Virus record (IMG/VR): IMGVR_UViG_3300029181_000054
Reading direction: 5' to 3' (one strand)
Source: a virus
Taxonomy: Duplodnaviria; Heunggongvirae; Uroviricota; Caudoviricetes
DNA: 5,772 nucleotides
The position numbers and the translations under genes were made by a program. This document shows, piece by piece, positions 1,531 through 5,186 of this stretch; the stretch's first letter is position 1; each line of letters opens with the position of its first letter. The notes under the pieces were generated by a model. The model was not told the origin of the DNA. It saw nothing but the letters and a program-made list of their open reading frames with translations, and did no database searches.

Positions 1531-1668
1531 AACTAAGCCGCCTCGTTGAAGCGACTGAGGTATAAAGTGTTGTGTTGATTTCAGCTGGTCACACCGACGT
1601 TCACGCGTCCGTTTCACCCCTCGCACTCCCCGAAGCCTGCTGAAATTCAAACTGCGGATCTAAGCGGT

Positions 1669-1718
1669 CATCGCAACGGTGAAACAGGTGGTTACCGTAT
1701 CGTTGTGTCGTTGCGATG
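1669..1718 (-). other. Perfect 10-bp inverted repeat (CATCGCAACG / CGTTGCGATG) with 30-nt spacer in the putative pL leader; potential RNA hairpin or protein binding site
   Basis: Window 1669-1678 CATCGCAACG and 1709-1718 CGTTGCGATG are exact reverse complements. The element begins right after the predicted pL start and ends just before the in-frame stop that opens the downstream ORF. Confidence 0.4.
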
Positions 1719-1721
1719 AAT

Positions 1722-1800
1722 TTATTTAAAACTATAGTTGTTTTATCGTCAACAACAAAAGTTGTTTTATCGGTTGTTTTAAATATAACTGGTTGTATTT
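1722..1800 (-). promoter_or_regulatory. Candidate OL operator cluster and pL promoter (leftward)
   Basis: GTTGTT motifs at 1737-1742, 1761-1766, 1773-1778 (and GGTTGTA 1791-1797), plus an inverted AACAAC at 1751-1756 forming GTTGTT-N8-AACAAC; the same half-site forms the palindrome between cI and cro. Minus-strand -35 TTGACG (window 1747-1752), 17-nt spacer, -10 TTAAAT (window 1724-1729). Confidence 0.45.
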
Positions 1801-1890: not shown

Positions 1891-1919
1891 GAAAAGAAAA
1901 CCCGGCGCGGTTGCCGGGT
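1891..1919 (-). terminator. Intrinsic (rho-independent) terminator downstream of the lipoprotein gene
   Basis: On the minus strand: GC-rich stem CCCGGC / GCCGGG (window 1901-1906 and 1913-1918) with a 6-nt loop, followed by TTTTCTTTTC. Starts 8 nt after the lipoprotein stop codon (1927-1929). Confidence 0.7.
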
Positions 1920-1926
1920 ATGATTA

Positions 1927-2307
1927 TCAGTCAGCCCAACCTGATTTCGAGTTTATTTGGGTTTCTGACATTGTGTATTTCTTAATCGTGTCATCGTTAA
2001 AAAGAATAGTAAGTTCTTTTTTCGTACCGTTCGTTCCATTATGGAATAATCCATAGAATGGAATAAAAGTGGTGCCATTAACTTTTACTTTTGCAAAGGC
2101 GTACTTCCAGATCTCCTTTCCACTGTCAGTATATGAAACAGCATCAGGAGAACCAAAGTAAGATTTAACCTCATTCTTGGTTGTTTTACCTTCCCGAAGT
2201 TTAGACTGGACACTAATTTCAGTTTCATTTTTGAGTTGCTGGTTGCCTGAAGAAGCACACCCAGCCAATACAGATGCCATCATGGCAGCGATTAGGATTT
2301 TTCTCAT
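1927..2307 (-). CDS. Small secreted lipoprotein (126 aa), AT-rich moron in the rexAB position; function unknown
   Basis: N-terminus MRKILIAAMMASVLAGCASS has a positively charged n-region, a hydrophobic core and a canonical lipobox LAGC (Cys17), with Ala at +2. The mature part has a pattern (SKLREGKTTKNEVKSYFGSPDAV ... LTILFNDDTIKKY) loosely reminiscent of BamE/SmpA-OmlA-type small lipoproteins; this is my recollection, not a search result. Sampled 60-nt segments are about one third GC, against more than half in bet. Confidence 0.85.
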   Translation of the reverse strand: MRKILIAAMMASVLAGCASSGNQQLKNETEISVQSKLREGKTTKNEVKSYFGSPDAVSYTDSGKEIWKYAFAKVKVNGTTFIPFYGLFHNGTNGTKKELTILFNDDTIKKYTMSETQINSKSGWAD

Positions 2308-2536
2308 TTTATGTTTCCATTCATTATAATCAGAAACATCTTAACATAATGATTCGAAATAAAAACCGCTACGAGATAGGGGGACATTTTGCTGACAGTA
2401 GCAACAAATCTCAGCTAACAACGAGAATATTTACTGAAATATGCAAACAGATTTGGCGTTCTTATAGAGAATTTAGTGCAATATCTAATCCGAGTGGTAT
2501 AAACCTTAACCTTCGCTCCCTTAAGTCGTAGATAAA

Positions 2537-3226
2537 TTAACCATGCTTCCTGTACGTCTGCGGCATGCTTCCAATGACCTTACCGAATATGAACACCCGG
2601 TTCATCTCGTCTTTCTCGATCGGGTCCCACGGCGAGTAGCTCTTGTTATCAGAGATAACCAGCAGCTTATCCTTCATCATTTGAAGACGTTTTACATGGG
2701 CAGTGTCGTCGTACAGAAACGCATAGATGCCATCACCGTCGAAAGATTTAACAGTGATATCAACGAACAGCAGGTCACCTGGTTCGATCGTCCCTGACAT
2801 GCTGTCACCTCGCACGTTAATGATGCGGATATTTTCCGCCTTCCTGCCATCGAACATGTGACGAGCATCGTCAAACGAGTACTCAACCGAGCGTAGAACT
2901 TCTACAAACTCACGGTTGATTACACCTGGCCCGGCACTGACTTCTATATCAAGAACGTCAATTTTGAAGTATTTGGAATGGCTGACAGTTGATTGTATTG
3001 GTTGCACTGTACTGTCTGACATATTTCCAACGCCAGAAGATAACCATTCTGCGCGCACACCCAAAGCGTTCGCGATCTCCACGATTTTAGTTGTTTGGTT
3101 AGCTTTCCCTGTTTCGATTTTCTGAATAGCAGCCTGGCTAACCCCGACCAAATCCCCAAGCGCCTTTTGTGTAAGGCCTCGCGCTAATCTGGCTTCTTTA
3201 AGTCTTTCTGAGAGTGTTGTTTTCAT
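2537..3226 (-). CDS. cI: CI-type prophage repressor: N-terminal XRE/Cro-CI helix-turn-helix and C-terminal S24 (LexA-like) autopeptidase domain
   Basis: 229 aa. N-terminal LTQKALGDLVGVSQAAIQKIETGK is a typical HTH. C-terminal RGDSMSGTIEPGDLLFVD (catalytic Ser) and VKRL (catalytic Lys) are S24 motifs, with a candidate Ala-Gly cleavage site in VSAGPG. Divergent from a cro-like gene across a 104-bp operator region. Not lambda cI. Confidence 0.93.
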   Translation of the reverse strand: MKTTLSERLKEARLARGLTQKALGDLVGVSQAAIQKIETGKANQTTKIVEIANALGVRAEWLSSGVGNMSDSTVQPIQSTVSHSKYFKIDVLDIEVSAGPGVINREFVEVLRSVEYSFDDARHMFDGRKAENIRIINVRGDSMSGTIEPGDLLFVDITVKSFDGDGIYAFLYDDTAHVKRLQMMKDKLLVISDNKSYSPWDPIEKDEMNRVFIFGKVIGSMPQTYRKHG

Positions 3227-3330
3227 AGATCAAATGTACAACCAAGGTTTTATTTCATCAAACGAAAATGGTTGTTGACTAAAAACAACCATAGTTTTAA
3301 TCTTGATTCGGATTAACCACGGAGGTTGTT
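3227..3330. promoter_or_regulatory. OR region: divergent pRM / pR promoters with palindromic operator(s)
   Basis: Perfect 25-bp palindrome ATGGTTGTT-gactaaa-AACAACCAT at 3268-3292 overlapping a plus-strand -35 TTGACT (3275-3280), with -10 TAATCT (3298-3303) and GGAGG Shine-Dalgarno at 3321-3325 before cro ATG 3331. A second, weaker site around 3236-3253 (ACAACC, palindrome AACCAAGGTT 3240-3249). Candidate minus-strand pRM: -35 TTGATG (window 3256-3261), -10 TACATT (window 3233-3238), which places the start at about the cI ATG (leaderless, as for lambda pRM). Confidence 0.55.
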
Positions 3331-3561
3331 ATGAACCCAGCAATCAAAACAGCGATCAATATCGTTGGTTCACAAAAGAAACTAGGCGATGCCTGCGAAG
3401 TTTCACAGCAGGCCGTCTATAAGTGGCTTCACAACAAAGCAAAGGTATCCCCTGAACATGTCGGCAGCATTGTTACGGCTACTGGTGGAGTTGTGAAGGC
3501 ATACCAGATTCGCCCGGATCTTCCGAAGTTGTTTCCACACACCGAAAAGAACGCAGCTTAA
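3331..3561 (+). CDS. cro: Cro-like HTH regulator of the YdaS family
   Basis: 76 aa, first gene rightward of the operator region, strong GGAGG Shine-Dalgarno. AIKTAINIVGSQKKLGDACEVSQQAVYKWL ... IRPDLPKLFP resembles my recollection of E. coli Rac YdaS (AIELAGGSQSALARLLGVSRQAVHQW ... RPDLW). Confidence 0.85.
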   Translation: MNPAIKTAINIVGSQKKLGDACEVSQQAVYKWLHNKAKVSPEHVGSIVTATGGVVKAYQIRPDLPKLFPHTEKNAA

Positions 3562-3573
3562 ATTTCCATTTCA

Positions 3574-3586
3574 CGCTCTTTAACAA
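3574..3586 (+). promoter_or_regulatory. boxA antitermination element (nutR-like position, immediately downstream of cro)
   Basis: CGCTCTTTAACAA at 3574-3586 matches the consensus boxA (rrn-type GCTCTTTAACAA; lambda nut boxA CGCTCTTA) and sits 13 nt after the cro stop, where nutR lies in lambda. No boxB-like hairpin is evident downstream. Confidence 0.55.
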
Positions 3587-3630
3587 TAAGCAATCAACTT
3601 AACAGTCAATTCAAACTAAAGGAGTCAATT

Positions 3631-4170
3631 ATGCAACCACTTACATACCAACAGACTAGCGGATTTATTCCGACTGCGGTGATAAATCGTTCTCAAACAA
3701 AACAAGCTCCAGGCCACGAAAAAATCCGTGATGCCGTCCGCGCCTGGTCGGCTGTAGATAATCAGGATGTCGTTGCCGCACTCATTGTGAATGAGTATCG
3801 GGAGCAGGGCGACGGCACCATCGATTTCCCTGATGATGTCAGCCGTGCACGCCAGAAGCTGTTCCGCTTCCTCGATAACAAATTCGATTCTGAAAAATAC
3901 CGAAATAACGTGCGTGAACTGACCCCGGCAATTCTGGCGGTACTACCGCTGGAATATCGCGGTTACCTGGTTGAGCAGGATAGCTTCATGACTCGGTTGG
4001 CTGAAATGGAAAAGGAACTCAGTGAGGCAAAACAGGCTGTCATTCTCAACGCACCACGCCACCAGAAACTGAAGGAAATGAGTGAAGGTATTGTGTCGAT
4101 GTTTCGTGTGGACCCGGATCTGGCTGGTCCATTAATGGCGATGGTGACCACCATGCTGGGGGCAATATGA
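3631..4170 (+). CDS. YdaT-family protein (CII-position regulator of YdaS/YdaT-type immunity regions)
   Basis: 179 aa with an AAGGAG Shine-Dalgarno. VAALIVNEYREQGDG and LTPAILAVLPLEYRGYL parallel VANAITEEYLRQGGG and LIPAILAILPRELR of E. coli Rac YdaT as I recall it. Sits between the cro-like gene and O, where cII lies in lambda. Its stop overlaps an upstream ATG in the O frame (ATGA at 4167-4170). Confidence 0.8.
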   Translation: MQPLTYQQTSGFIPTAVINRSQTKQAPGHEKIRDAVRAWSAVDNQDVVAALIVNEYREQGDGTIDFPDDVSRARQKLFRFLDNKFDSEKYRNNVRELTPAILAVLPLEYRGYLVEQDSFMTRLAEMEKELSEAKQAVILNAPRHQKLKEMSEGIVSMFRVDPDLAGPLMAMVTTMLGAI

Positions 4171-4256
4171 CAGGTTCAGAAATGGCGAAAGTCGGTCTGC
4201 GGGAACAGAACCGACTTTCAGGTGCAAATCGTAACACACTCATTGCGGGAGGAATT

Positions 4257-5186
4257 ATGGCAAACACTGCTGAGATATTCAATTTTCCAGTGCCGGATGC
4301 GGCACAAAAGGAGCCGCGCGTGGCAGATCTCGATGATGGTTATACGCGCATTGCAAATGAGTTGCTGGAAGCTGTGATGCTGGCCGGATTAACACAGCAC
4401 CAGCTTCTGGTCTTCCTGGCTGTCATGCGCAAAACATATGGCTTTAATAAAAAACTGGATTGGGTGAGCAACGAGCAACTTTCCGAGTTGACCGGGATAT
4501 TGCCGCACAAGTGTTCTGCTGCAAAAAGTGTTCTGGTAAAGCGTGGGATTTTTATTCAGAGCGGGCGGAATATCGGCATTAATAATGTGGTCAGTGAATG
4601 GTCAACATTACCCGAATCAGGTAAGAAAAATAAAGTTTACCTGAAAGAGGTAAATTTACCTGAATCAGGTAAGAAAAGTTTACCCAAATCAGGTAAAGGC
4701 ACTTACCCGAATCAGGTAAACACAAAAGACAAACTAACAAAAGACAATATAAAACCTTTTTCGTCCGAGAATTCTGGCGAATCCTCTGACCAACCAGAAA
4801 ACGATCTTCCTGTGGAGAAACCAGATGCTGCAATTCAGAGCGGCAGCAGGTGGGGGACAGCAGAAGACCTGACCGCCGCAGAGTGGATGTTTGACATGGT
4901 GAAGACCATCGCGCCATCAGCCAGAAAACCGAATTTTGCAGGGTGGGCTAACGATATCCGCCTGATGCGTGAACGTGACGGACGTAACCACCGCGACATG
5001 TGCGTGCTGTTCCGCTGGGCATGCCAGGACAACTTCTGGTCCGGTAACGTGCTGAGTCCGGCCAAACTCCGCGACAAGTGGACCCAGCTCGAAATCAACC
5101 GAAACAAGCAACAGGCTGGCGTGACAGCCGGCAAACCAAAACTCGACCTGACGAACACTGACTGGATTTACGGGGTGGATTTATGA
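4257..5186 (+). CDS. O: Replication initiator O (origin-binding protein), chimeric: non-lambda N-terminal region, lambda-like C-terminal region
   Basis: Start chosen at ATG 4257-4259 (GGGAGG Shine-Dalgarno 4245-4250) because MANTAEIFNF...VADLDDGYTRIANELLEA aligns with the lambda O N-terminus MTNTAKILNF...VADLDDGYARL. The open frame extends upstream to ATG 4167, an alternative start 30 codons longer. The C-terminal part (SGSRWGTAEDLTAAEWMFDMVKTIAPSARKPNFAGWANDIRLMRERDGRNHRDMCVLFRWACQDNFWSGNVLSPAKLRDKWTQLEINRNKQQAGVTAGKPKLDLTNTDWIYGVDL) is near-identical to lambda O from memory. The stop overlaps the P start (ATGA). Confidence 0.92.
   Translation: MANTAEIFNFPVPDAAQKEPRVADLDDGYTRIANELLEAVMLAGLTQHQLLVFLAVMRKTYGFNKKLDWVSNEQLSELTGILPHKCSAAKSVLVKRGIFIQSGRNIGINNVVSEWSTLPESGKKNKVYLKEVNLPESGKKSLPKSGKGTYPNQVNTKDKLTKDNIKPFSSENSGESSDQPENDLPVEKPDAAIQSGSRWGTAEDLTAAEWMFDMVKTIAPSARKPNFAGWANDIRLMRERDGRNHRDMCVLFRWACQDNFWSGNVLSPAKLRDKWTQLEINRNKQQAGVTAGKPKLDLTNTDWIYGVDL
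4608..4720 (+). repeat. ori iterons inside the O gene: five copies (one degenerate) of a 16-bp dyad-symmetric core TACC(C/T)(G/A)AATCAGGTAA
   Basis: Cores at 4609-4624 (TACCCGAATCAGGTAA), 4638-4653 (TACCTGAAAGAGGTAA, two mismatches), 4657-4672 (TACCTGAATCAGGTAA, a perfect palindrome), 4681-4696 (TACCCAAATCAGGTAA) and 4704-4719 (TACCCGAATCAGGTAA), at 19-29 bp spacing. They translate as the repetitive LPESGKK linker of O. Confidence 0.85.
4721..4765. other. AT-rich (A-rich) region flanking the iterons; putative DNA-unwinding part of the phage origin
   Basis: CACAAAAGACAAACTAACAAAAGACAATATAAAACCTTTTT lies directly right of the last iteron. Lambda ori has the same layout of iterons followed by an AT-rich segment within O. 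Confidence 0.6.

What the first reader, a model, noticed from the sequence alone, without database searches (positions are those of the whole stretch)
3227..3330. OR region: perfect 25-bp palindromic operator overlapping pR, and a leaderless-type pRM
Seen: ATGGTTGTT-N7-AACAACCAT (3268-3292) is a perfect palindrome with 9-bp arms overlapping the candidate pR -35. A weaker ACAACC-containing site lies nearer cI. The candidate pRM (-35 window 3256-3261, -10 window 3233-3238) would start transcription at about the cI ATG. Inference: GGTTGTT is the half-site recognised by this CI repressor, so this is a defined immunity specificity distinct from lambda, 434 or P22.
Basis: partly seen in the sequence, partly recalled or inferred. 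Interest (0 to 1): 0.45.

Follow-up and report, generated by a model that had tools for sequence, protein, structure and literature searches.

The report
Lambdoid prophage OR: three 434-type operators
The perfect 25-bp palindrome is real, but it is the junction of two neighbouring repressor-binding sites in an ordinary lambda-style genetic switch whose three 16-bp operators resemble those of phage 434; this uncharacterised immunity type sits in about a quarter of complete E. coli genomes.

Summary
The palindrome ATGGTTGTT-N7-AACAACCAT lies exactly at 3268-3292, between divergent cI (HTH + S24 peptidase) and a YdaS-type cro, in a lambdoid phage 99.9% identical to Escherichia phage PhiR26_1.

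It paired the wrong halves.

Comparison with 21 related loci and five more distant phages shows that the operator unit is a 14-16-bp dyad, (T/A)A(C/A)AAC-N4-GTT(G/T)T(A/T). It has five conserved outer bases on each side and four variable central bases.
- OR3 is 3237-3252, OR2 is 3261-3276 (left half weak) and OR1 is 3284-3299. Centres are 24 and 23 bp apart, as in lambda.
- OL1 (1727-1742) and OL2 (1751-1766) flank pL.

The palindrome is the right half of OR2, the pR -35 spacer and the left half of OR1. In Klebsiella relatives with identical recognition helices its arms decay without compensating changes, while the dyads persist.

The closest solved structure to the repressor's DNA-binding domain is the 434 repressor (39% identity), whose operators have the same 5+4+5 layout. 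This is a new member of a known kind. No protein binding or transcript start was tested.

The parts
2537..3226 (-). cI repressor gene (229 aa): N-terminal 434-like HTH domain, C-terminal S24 autopeptidase with an Ala98-Gly99 site, Ser142 and Lys179
   Evidence: ORF list. Pfam HTH_3 at 5e-13 and Peptidase_S24 at 1e-18. Invariant A98, G99, S142 and K179. Nearest solved structure is the 434 repressor.
3233..3238 (-). Predicted pRM -10 (TACATT on the cI strand). It starts with the outer TA of OR3 and ends 6 nt before the cI ATG.
   Evidence: Read from the sequence. Hexamer positions 1, 2 and 6 are invariant and positions 3-5 vary across 14 distinct OR sequences. The scanner did not call it.
3237..3252 (.). 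OR3: TACAACCAAGGTTTTA, a full 16-bp dyad operator (14-bp core 3238-3251)
   Evidence: TACAACC and GTTTT are invariant and the central 2-3 bases vary.
3256..3261 (-). Predicted pRM -35 (TTGATG on the cI strand)
   Evidence: The TTG (3259-3261) is invariant in relatives. It lies 17 nt from the -10.
3261..3276 (.). OR2: AACGAAAATGGTTGTT. The right half is consensus and the left half is weak (ACGAA against ACAAC).
   Evidence: Best dyad in the window outside the four sites used to build the matrix. Nearly invariant in relatives. HK639, PA28 and UPF_BP1 have a dyad in the same frame.
3268..3292 (.).
   Evidence: The exact form is limited to the E. coli lineage.
3274..3279 (+). Predicted pR -35 (TTGACT)
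   Evidence: Invariant in all relatives. pL has the same element (TTGACG or TTGACT).
3284..3299 (.). OR1: AACAACCATAGTTTTA, a full 16-bp dyad operator (14-bp core 3285-3298)
3298..3303 (+). Predicted pR -10 (TAATCT, 18-nt spacer). It starts with the outer TA of OR1. Predicted transcript start is about 3310.
   Evidence: T1, A2 and T6 are invariant and positions 3-4 vary. The scanner did not call it, so this is an inference.
3321..3325 (+). cro Shine-Dalgarno sequence GGAGG. The adjacent AGGTTGTT (3323-3330) resembles a half-site.
3331..3561 (+). cro (76 aa, YdaS/P22-Cro-type HTH). Its recognition helix VSQQAVYKW resembles that of cI (VSQAAIQKI).
1727..1742 (-). OL1: AACAACTATAGTTTTA, between the -35 and -10 of pL
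1751..1766 (-). OL2: AACAACTTTTGTTGTT. Both halves are the ACAAC type. It lies 24 bp from OL1 and overlaps the pL -35 (TTGACG, 1747-1752).
1790..1797 (-). Distal OL element: a lone consensus half-site TACAACCA, 31 bp from the OL2 centre, conserved in position in relatives. It is not a canonical OL3 dyad.

Best explanation
The 104-bp cI-cro spacer is a lambda-style right operator with three binding sites for a 434-like CI dimer. Each site is a 14-16-bp dyad, (T/A)A(C/A)AAC-N4-GTT(G/T)T(A/T). The outer five bases of each half would be read by the recognition helix (VSQAAIQK). The four central bases are free to vary.

OR1 (3284-3299) covers the pR spacer and -10. OR2 (3261-3276) overlaps the pR -35 and has only one good half, so it probably depends on cooperative binding with OR1. 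OR3 (3237-3252) covers the -10 of pRM.

Inferred mechanism: CI at OR1 and OR2 shuts off pR and cro. From OR2, centred at about -42.5 from the cI ATG, CI probably stimulates pRM. At high concentration CI fills OR3 and shuts off pRM. The cI message from pRM would start at or next to its AUG (leaderless).

Matching sites OL1 and OL2 control pL 1.5 kb away. A YdaS-type Cro with a similar recognition helix probably competes for the same sites. RecA-stimulated self-cleavage of CI at Ala98-Gly99 would give SOS induction.

The perfect 25-bp palindrome is a by-product. The inner halves of OR2 and OR1 both match the ideal half-site AACAACCA(T) and face away from each other across the -35.

Shown here: sequence conservation, motif statistics and homology. 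Inferred: protein binding, cooperativity, activation and transcript starts.
For: 1. The head-to-head pattern A[AC]AAC-N4-GTT[GT]T occurs exactly 4 times in each of 22 loci (156 kb in all). The four places are always OR3, OR1, OL1 and OL2, with fixed spacings of 47 and 24 bp, although the distance from OL to cI varies from 0.9 to 3 kb. In the window this is 4 matches against 0.05 expected.
2. Across 14 distinct OR sequences from Klebsiella, Raoultella, Phytobacter, Pluralibacter and E. coli, all with cI helix SQAAIQKIETG and Cro helix VSQQAVYKW, the outer pentamers are invariant. The central 2-4 bases and the inter-operator spacers vary.
3. OR2 is the best dyad in the window outside the four sites used to build the matrix, and it sits 24 and 23 bp from OR3 and OR1.
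4. The nearest solved structure to the CI N-terminal domain is the 434 repressor R1-69: E 7.6e-10, 39% identity over 62 residues, no gaps. 434 operators are 14 bp, with 5+5 contacted outer bases and 4 central ones, three sites each in OR and OL (PMC1636474).
5. More distant relatives keep the same frame at the same offsets from the cI ATG. HK639 has three perfect ATAAC-N4-GTTAT dyads, and PA28 is the same. Providencia PSTCR7lys and Salmonella UPF_BP1 are the ACAAC type.
6. Helix and operator co-vary. cI VSQ-A-AIQK and Cro VSQ-Q/A-AVxK go with A(C/A)AAC. cI VSQ-P-AIQK and Cro VSQ-P-AVHK go with ATAAC. The changed residue aligns with 434 Gln29.
7. Conservation marks TAnnnT hexamers at 3233-3238 (cI strand) and 3298-3303, a TTG at 3259-3261 and TTGACT at 3274-3279.
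8. The related CP-933P switch (a cI-like repressor with YdaS and YdaT) has footprinted operators over both promoters and a leaderless repressor gene (PMC8630535).
Against: No binding, footprint or transcript data exist for this phage, so everything mechanistic is inferred. The left half of OR2 matches only 3 of 5 core bases. Its strict conservation could owe as much to the pRM -35 as to repressor contact. The consensus promoter scanner found none of pR, pRM or pL at its threshold. My -10 assignments need an 18-nt spacer, and the pL hexamer TAAATA lacks the final T. OL has no canonical third dyad, only lone or direct-repeat half-sites. The matrix was built from the four sites it ranks first, so only the ranking of OR2 is independent. 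In E. coli the perfect palindrome is almost invariant (1296 genomes with an identical 48-nt core). Selection on the palindrome itself therefore cannot be excluded from E. coli data alone.
Confidence: 0.8

Rival explanations
1. One reading: the 25-bp perfect palindrome is one operator, bound by a single CI dimer through 9-bp half-sites (ATGGTTGTT / AACAACCAT) placed tail-to-tail across a 7-bp centre. The ACAACC near cI is a weaker copy.
For: The symmetry is perfect over 9+9 bp, and only 2% of shuffles of the intergenic region produce such a repeat. It overlaps the pR -35. The exact sequence is kept in 1296 complete E. coli genomes. A tail-to-tail GTTKT...AMAAC pair is present at pR and at pL in all 22 loci.
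Against: - In relatives with identical cI and Cro recognition helices the arms shrink to 5-8 bp (A3284T, C3290T, T3292A). The exact pattern is found in only one of the loci fetched, the same phage.
- At pL the tail-to-tail spacing is one base longer (N8 against N7 for the hexamer arms; N10 against N9 for the pentamer cores).
- OR3 has no tail-to-tail partner at all.
- The model leaves the invariant GTTTT at 3247-3251 and 3294-3298 unexplained.
- In Salmonella UPF_BP1 the strong half of OR2 is the other one, so no such palindrome exists there.
- The homologous 434 repressor binds head-to-head ACAA...TTGT sites of 14 bp (PMC1636474).
Confidence: 0.08
2. Dual register: CI uses the 16-bp dyads, but the palindrome centred at 3280 is a separate functional site. 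It could be bound by the YdaS-type Cro or by another factor with a different half-site spacing.
For: In the related CP-933P switch the authors found two overlapping sets of repeats and could not say which one PaaR2 and YdaS use (PMC8630535). The palindrome is strictly kept within E. coli. The tail-to-tail cores are present in all 22 loci.
Against: The Cro recognition helix (VSQQAVYKW) resembles that of cI and co-varies with the same operator position, which suggests the same half-site register. The Cro HTH is identical in the Klebsiella relatives whose palindrome arms are degraded. The tail-to-tail cores follow necessarily from where the operators sit.
Confidence: 0.07
3. The palindrome acts as a nucleic-acid structure: an RNA hairpin or terminator, or a DNA cruciform.
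For: One search lists it as terminator-like on both strands. The RNA hairpin is -10.8 kcal/mol on the + strand (z -3.5) and -9.0 on the - strand.
Against: The stem is A+T-rich (3 G-C pairs) and weak. It lies upstream of both predicted transcript starts, so neither pR nor pRM would transcribe it. The substitutions in relatives are not compensated on the other arm. Rfam has no match.
Confidence: 0.02

Closest known systems
Phage 434 repressor and its OR/OL operators
   Same: The N-terminal domain is homologous: 39% identity with no gaps, and 434 is the best PDB match. The operator layout is the same: 14 bp as 5 contacted + 4 central + 5 contacted, with three sites in OR and further sites in OL (PMC1636474). 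Many half-sites start with 434's ACAA, and OL2 (ACAACTTTTGTTGT) fits ACAA-N6-TTGT exactly. The residue equivalent to 434 Gln28 is kept (Gln31).
   Different: Position 5 is always C here. Position 2 may be A (AAAAC halves), which from my own knowledge 434 repressor tolerates poorly. One or two flanking bases are also conserved, giving a 16-bp site. 434 Gln29 and Gln33 are Ala32 and Lys36 here. The Cro is YdaS/P22-Cro-like, not 434 Cro-like. The C-terminal domain and the neighbouring genes differ.
Phage lambda OR (OR1-OR2-OR3, pR/pRM, leaderless cI)
   Same: Divergent cI and cro. Three operators with centres 23-24 bp apart (from my own knowledge, lambda's are 24 and 23). The outer operators overlap the two -10 regions. 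The middle operator lies at about -42 from the cI start. The predicted cI transcript has no leader. A matching OL exists. The repressor has an S24 self-cleaving C-terminal domain.
   Different: The repressor DNA-binding domain belongs to a different family (HTH_3, 434-like; no lambda cI hit in the PDB search). Operators are 14-16 bp rather than 17 bp, and the half-site is TACAACCA rather than TATCACC. There is no N gene next to pL, and cII is replaced by a YdaT-type protein.
CP-933P switch of E. coli O157:H7 (PaaR2 / YdaS / YdaT; PMC8630535, PMC9986795)
   Same: The gene order is the same: repressor, then a YdaS-type Cro, then a YdaT-type cII analogue. Experiments there showed operators over both divergent promoters, a leaderless repressor gene and a pL-like second operator. 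Symmetry elements overlap ambiguously there too.
   Different: The operator sequence is different (GTTTAGTAA-type 18-bp repeats). The repressor locus there carries a toxin-antitoxin pair. The repressor here has an S24 peptidase domain and a 434-like N-terminal domain.
HK639 and PA28/Stx1-phage immunity regions (ATAAC-N4-GTTAT)
   Same: Their cI N-terminal domains are 56-58% identical to this one. They have three dyads in the same 5+4+5 frame at the same offsets from the cI ATG. Their Cro is of the same type. HK639 has matching OL sites.
   Different: Half-site position 2 is T instead of C or A, and Pro replaces Ala (cI) or Gln (Cro) in the recognition helices. All three OR dyads are perfect in HK639. 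I found no experimental study of these operators either.

Membership tests
Lambdoid tripartite OR switch | Divergent cI-type repressor (HTH + S24 peptidase) and cro flanking a spacer of about 100 bp | tested here: met
   ORFs, Pfam, annotation of the identical phage. The spacer is 104 nt in all close relatives.
Lambdoid tripartite OR switch | Three partly symmetric operator sites with centres about 23-24 bp apart | tested here: met
   OR3, OR2 and OR1 centres at 3244.5, 3268.5 and 3291.5. Two are full dyads and OR2 has one consensus half. HK639 has three perfect dyads in the same frame.
Lambdoid tripartite OR switch | Related operators at a second, leftward early promoter (OL/pL) | tested here: met
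   OL1 and OL2 are 24 bp apart in all 22 loci. The third OL element is only a half-site.
Lambdoid tripartite OR switch | Functional divergent promoters pR and pRM overlapped by the operators | tested here: inconclusive
   The conservation pattern fits TTGACT-18-TAnnnT and TTGnnn-17-TAnnnT, but the consensus scanner found none of them. No transcript data.
Lambdoid tripartite OR switch | Repressor and Cro bind these sites; repressor binds cooperatively and activates pRM | not testable with these tools
   Needs EMSA, footprinting and reporter assays.
Lambdoid tripartite OR switch | RecA-dependent self-cleavage machinery (Ala-Gly site, Ser/Lys dyad) | tested here: met
   A98-G99, S142 and K179 are invariant in 15 homologues. 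Peptidase_S24 at 1e-18. Cleavage itself was not tested.
434-type repressor/operator | N-terminal domain homologous to 434 R1-69 | tested here: met
   phmmer against the PDB, E 7.6e-10, top natural hit. BLASTP 39% identity over 62 residues, no gaps.
434-type repressor/operator | 14-bp operator: outer 5+5 conserved, inner 4 variable | tested here: met
   The definition is taken from PMC1636474.
434-type repressor/operator | Outer four bases ACAA...TTGT in nearly every half-site | tested here: not met
   About 40% of half-sites (14 of 36 in the set) have A rather than C at the second core base, giving AAAAC. This is therefore not the 434 operator set.
434-type repressor/operator | Base-contacting residues Gln28, Gln29 and Gln33 (roles from my own knowledge of the 434 complexes) | tested here: not met
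   The alignment gives Gln31, Ala32 and Lys36. Only the first is kept, which implies a different specificity.
Leaderless cI mRNA (lambda pRM type) | No Shine-Dalgarno sequence, and a -10 hexamer ending 6-7 nt before the AUG | tested here: met
   TACATT-TGATCT-ATG on the cI strand. The stretch between OR3 and the ATG varies in relatives, has no conserved purine-rich box, and keeps TAnnnT.
Leaderless cI mRNA (lambda pRM type) | Transcript 5' end at the A of the AUG | not testable with these tools
   Needs 5' RACE or differential RNA-seq on a lysogen.
   The arms decay in Klebsiella, Raoultella, Phytobacter and Pluralibacter. Spacing is N7 at pR and N8 at pL.
Intrinsic terminator or structured hairpin | Stable G+C-rich stem with a T run, kept by compensatory changes | tested here: not met
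   -9 to -10.8 kcal/mol, 3 G-C pairs. Substitutions are uncompensated. No Rfam match.

The most novel reading that the evidence does not exclude
The two symmetry registers are both used. CI dimers read the three head-to-head 16-bp dyads. The tail-to-tail pair of ideal half-sites that straddles the -35 of pR (and, one base wider, of pL) forms a second site, bound in a different geometry by the YdaS-type Cro or by a CI tetramer. In that case repressor and anti-repressor would share half-sites but not dyads. This would also resolve the unresolved 'inverted repeats versus operators' ambiguity reported for the CP-933P switch.
Probability: 0.06. Interest if true: 0.55.

Novelty: new member of a known kind. 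Interest (0 to 1): 0.27.

Why it matters
This immunity module is common. A 291-nt stretch across OR is present at 95% identity or more in 1519 of 5426 complete E. coli genomes, and close relatives are abundant in Klebsiella, yet I found no paper describing its operators.

A defined operator (TACAACCA|TGGTTKTA), site map and promoter prediction have four uses:
- They let one predict which prophages are homoimmune.
- They allow operators to be annotated automatically.
- They expose a frequent annotation error: 251-aa 'cI' proteins that start inside OR1.
- They make it possible to design reporters or repressor-operator parts.

The parallel change of one recognition-helix residue in both cI and Cro with one operator base (Ala or Gln with C/A; Pro with T) is a small natural example of how 434-type specificity shifts.

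None of this changes the general picture of lambdoid switches.

Tried and rejected
- **A 17-bp AAAAC-N7-GTTTT model.** It fitted the window but failed in relatives, where AAAAC at 3282-3286 becomes AATAC while ACAAC stays.
- **The genome-contig scan with the cI alignment.** It mostly returned loci with the same C-terminal domain but unrelated N-terminal domains, because these repressors are mosaic. Only L002 was usable. Exact-protein look-ups gave the useful relatives.
- **Full-text search for the operator strings.** It returned only primers and unrelated sequences.
- **Searches for the phage names and for ECOR/lambdoid immunity papers.** They found nothing on this module.
- **933W repressor as an experimental anchor for the ATAAC relatives.** It is a different protein with 15-bp operators.
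- **Rfam on the whole window.** No match.
- **Comparison of the pL leader with the HK639 putL-like RNA.** No similarity.
- **The promoter/terminator scanner.** It found none of pR, pRM or pL and flagged the palindrome as terminator-like, a reading I reject (and the uncompensated substitutions).
- **One literature search failed** on a term that was too short.

Full report
**Context.** The window is the early region of a lambdoid phage. It is 99.9% identical over the 1401 bases compared (2300-3700) to Escherichia phage PhiR26_1, and about 96-97% identical to five other recently deposited E. coli phages over the part they share. The genes are bet, gam and kil, then a small lipoprotein gene, cI (2537-3226, minus strand), cro (3331-3561), a YdaT-type cII analogue, and O and P. 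cI carries an HTH_3 domain and a Peptidase_S24 domain. cro matches the YdaS and P22-Cro families. The finding sits in the 104-nt spacer between cI and cro.

**The observation.** ATGGTTGTT-GACTAAA-AACAACCAT is at 3268-3292 exactly as described, and TTGACT lies at 3274-3279. As a bare palindrome it is only moderately unusual. A perfect repeat with arms of 9 bp or more and a loop of 20 nt or less turns up in 37% of shuffles of the whole window, but in only 2% of shuffles of the spacer alone. GTTGTT is over-represented, with 12 copies against 4.4 expected. It clusters at 3271-3330 and, 1.5 kb to the left, at 1737-1778.

**A second operator region.** On the minus strand, 1725-1800 reads ...AACAACTTTTGTTGTTGACGATAAAACAACTATAGTTTTAAAT.... 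This is almost the same layout as ...ATGGTTGTTGACTAAAAACAACCATAGTTTTAAT... at pR. It is therefore OL/pL. At pL the two hexamers GTTGTT and AACAAC are 8 bases apart, not 7. That was the first sign that the tail-to-tail pair is not a rigid unit.

**Comparative evidence.** The cI protein has hundreds of homologues at 76-81% identity in Klebsiella, Raoultella, Phytobacter and Pluralibacter. Their recognition helix is unchanged (GVSQAAIQKIETGKA). I fetched 16 such loci by exact-protein look-up, one from the species-level genome scan and four E. coli prophages.
- The cI-cro spacer aligns without gaps to the window in all of them except L086, which is one base shorter next to the cro start.
- Across 14 distinct sequences the conserved blocks are TACAACC...GTTTT (3237-3251), CAAACGAAAATGGTTGTTGACTAAA-ACAAC-A--GTTTTA (3259-3299) and the cro ribosome-binding site.
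- The variable stretches are 3227-3232, 3252-3258, 3300-3318 and the centres of the two blocks.
- In most relatives 3284 is T, and in many 3290 is T and 3292 is A. The left arm never changes. The palindrome therefore shrinks to 5-8 bp with no compensating change. The exact pattern GGTTGTT-N7-AACAACC is found in only one fetched locus, the same phage.
- What persists is a head-to-head dyad. A[AC]AAC-N4-GTT[GT]T occurs exactly four times in every one of the 22 sequences, 88 times in 156 kb. The places are always OR3, OR1, OL1 and OL2. In the window this is 4 matches against 0.05 expected.
- The tail-to-tail arrangement occurs once per locus with 9 bases between the pentamers (pR) and once with 10 (pL). 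That is what adjacent operators 23 and 24 bp apart would give.

**The operator model.** With the flanking bases included, the sites are:

| Site | Coordinates | Sequence |
|---|---|---|
| OR3 | 3237-3252 | TACAACCAAGGTTTTA |
| OR2 | 3261-3276 | AACGAAAATGGTTGTT |
| OR1 | 3284-3299 | AACAACCATAGTTTTA |
| OL1 | 1727-1742 (minus strand) | AACAACTATAGTTTTA |
| OL2 | 1751-1766 (minus strand) | AACAACTTTTGTTGTT |

- Centres are 24 and 23 bp apart in OR and 24 bp apart in OL. From my own knowledge, lambda's OR spacings are the same.
- A half-site matrix built from the 18 distinct full dyads gives T/A-A-C/A-A-A-C-C/T-A. Scanning the window with it, the best site outside the four used to build the matrix is OR2. 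OR2 has a consensus right half and a poor left half.
Both inner halves happen to equal the ideal AACAACCA, followed by the first base across the dyad. That accounts for all nine arm positions.

**Structural precedent.** Among all PDB sequences the CI N-terminal domain is closest to the 434 repressor DNA-binding domain (E 7.6e-10; 39% identity over 62 residues, no gaps). No lambda or P22 repressor appears in the hit list. 434 has three 14-bp sites in each of OR and OL. Their outer 5+5 bases are contacted, the outer 4+4 are conserved, and the inner 4 are not contacted (PMC1636474). The 5+4+5 pattern here is the same, and half-sites of the ACAAC type share 434's ACAA. In the alignment, 434 Gln28 corresponds to Gln31 here, but Gln29 and Gln33 correspond to Ala32 and Lys36. 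The role of those three glutamines is from my own knowledge of the 434 complexes. The specificity should therefore differ, which fits the tolerated A at core position 2 and the invariant C at position 5. A Lys36 contact to the G of that C-G pair is my speculation.

**More distant relatives.** Phages whose cI N-terminal domain is 56-65% identical keep the same frame at the same offsets from the cI ATG.
- HK639 has three perfect ATAAC-N4-GTTAT dyads, and its pL region has one perfect dyad and one with a single mismatch.
- The Stx1 phage PA28 follows the HK639 pattern in OR, with one ACAAC half in its middle site.
- Providencia PSTCR7lys and Salmonella UPF_BP1, which have the SQAAIQK helix, have ACAAC-type sites.
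- In UPF_BP1 the strong half of OR2 is the left one, so no tail-to-tail palindrome exists there.
- The helix residue that aligns with 434 Gln29 tracks operator position 2 in both proteins. cI VSQ-A-AIQK and Cro VSQ-Q/A-AVxK go with C or A. cI VSQ-P-AIQK and Cro VSQ-P-AVHK go with T. This supports the register. It also suggests that Cro reads the same half-sites.

**Promoters (inferred).**
- On the cI strand, TTGATG (3256-3261), 17 nt and TACATT (3233-3238) precede the ATG by 6 nt, with no Shine-Dalgarno sequence.
- In relatives the TTG and positions 1, 2 and 6 of the hexamer are invariant, while the bases between OR3 and the ATG vary freely.
- It puts the OR2 centre at about -42.5 and the OR3 centre at about -18.5.
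- For pR, TTGACT (invariant) is followed after 18 nt by TAATCT (3298-3303), which shows the same TAnnnT conservation. The predicted start is near 3310.
- In both cases the outer TA of the flanking operator is the first two bases of the -10.
- The consensus scanner did not report these promoters, so they remain predictions.
- In the related CP-933P module, footprints of the repressor and YdaS cover both promoters and the repressor gene is leaderless (PMC8630535).

**Rivals.**
- The single-palindrome operator is contradicted by the decay of the arms, by the N7/N8 difference between pR and pL, by OR3 lacking a partner, and by the unexplained invariant GTTTT blocks.
- A hairpin or terminator role is unlikely. 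The stem is weak (-9 to -10.8 kcal/mol). It lies upstream of both predicted starts. Its substitutions are uncompensated. Rfam has no match.
- A second use of the palindrome, for example by Cro, cannot be excluded, but nothing requires it.

**Distribution and novelty.** A 291-nt stretch across OR is present in 1521 of 5426 complete E. coli genomes. A 48-nt core that includes the palindrome is identical in 1296 of them. I found no paper on these operators. Absence from the searchable library is not proof. I class this as a new member of a known kind: a lambda-type switch built with 434-type parts and a half-site I could not find described. It is a useful annotation but not a surprise to a specialist.

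Noticed in passing
window 1764-1797 (minus strand); OL regions of L002 and L082-L097: OL has no canonical third dyad. A lone perfect half-site TACAACCA (1797->1790) sits 31 bp from the OL2 centre and keeps that position in all relatives. The window also has AACAACCG (1778->1771). Klebsiella relatives instead carry two half-sites as a direct repeat 10 bp apart (AACAACCAAATAAAACCA).
   Followed up: partly
window 1617-1720 (minus strand): There is no N-like gene between pL and kil. The pL leader can form a hairpin with an 11-bp stem (arms 1669-1679 and 1709-1719; -20 kcal/mol, z -3.0). Klebsiella relatives have a different small G+C hairpin there. HK639, a relative with the same operator frame, has an annotated putL-like antiterminator RNA after pL, but it shows no sequence similarity to this leader.
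   Followed up: partly
window 3227-3292 (minus strand): Many database entries, including one cluster of 1273 sequences, give cI as 251 aa with a 22-residue extension (MVVFSQQPFSFDGIKPWLYIWT). The extension starts at the ATG of the palindrome arm inside OR1. In the window an in-frame TGA (reverse complement of 3230-3232) blocks this reading. It looks like a gene-calling artefact.
   Followed up: partly
window 4187-4219: A second perfect inverted repeat, GAAAGTCGGT-N13-ACCGACTTTC, lies just inside the 5' end of the O replication gene. Its function is unknown.
   Followed up: no
window 3303-3320: TTGATT-N6-AACCAC in the cro leader resembles the YdaT site TTGATT-N6-AATCAA footprinted in CP-933P (PMC9986795). 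It is kept in the four E. coli prophage copies examined but absent from the YdaT-bearing K. aerogenes relative.
   Followed up: partly
window 1900-2536; loci L082-L101: The slot between cI and OL (the rex position in lambda) holds a 126-aa lipoprotein gene with a weak BamE-like match (1927-2307) and its own terminator-like hairpin (1919-1900). Relatives carry quite different cargo there, including PIN, HipA-like, Bro-N, BstA_C and ParA-like genes, so the OL-OR distance ranges from 0.9 to 3 kb.
   Followed up: partly
loci L086-L097 compared with window 3631-4170: The cI-OR-cro unit is a fixed cassette, but the gene after cro differs among relatives. It can be a YdaT-type protein (about 180 aa), a lambda-CII-type protein (73-99 aa), or an unrelated 106-aa protein.
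   Followed up: no
window 3323-3330 and 3216-3224: Half-site-like sequences overlap the cro ribosome-binding site and start (AGGTTGTT; its complement is AACAACCT). On the cI strand another overlaps the first cI codons (ATGAAAACAACA encodes MKTT). Neither has a dyad partner.
   Followed up: no
window 4613-4720: Repeated CCTGAATCAGGTAAG-type units lie inside the O gene, presumably the replication-origin iterons.
   Followed up: no
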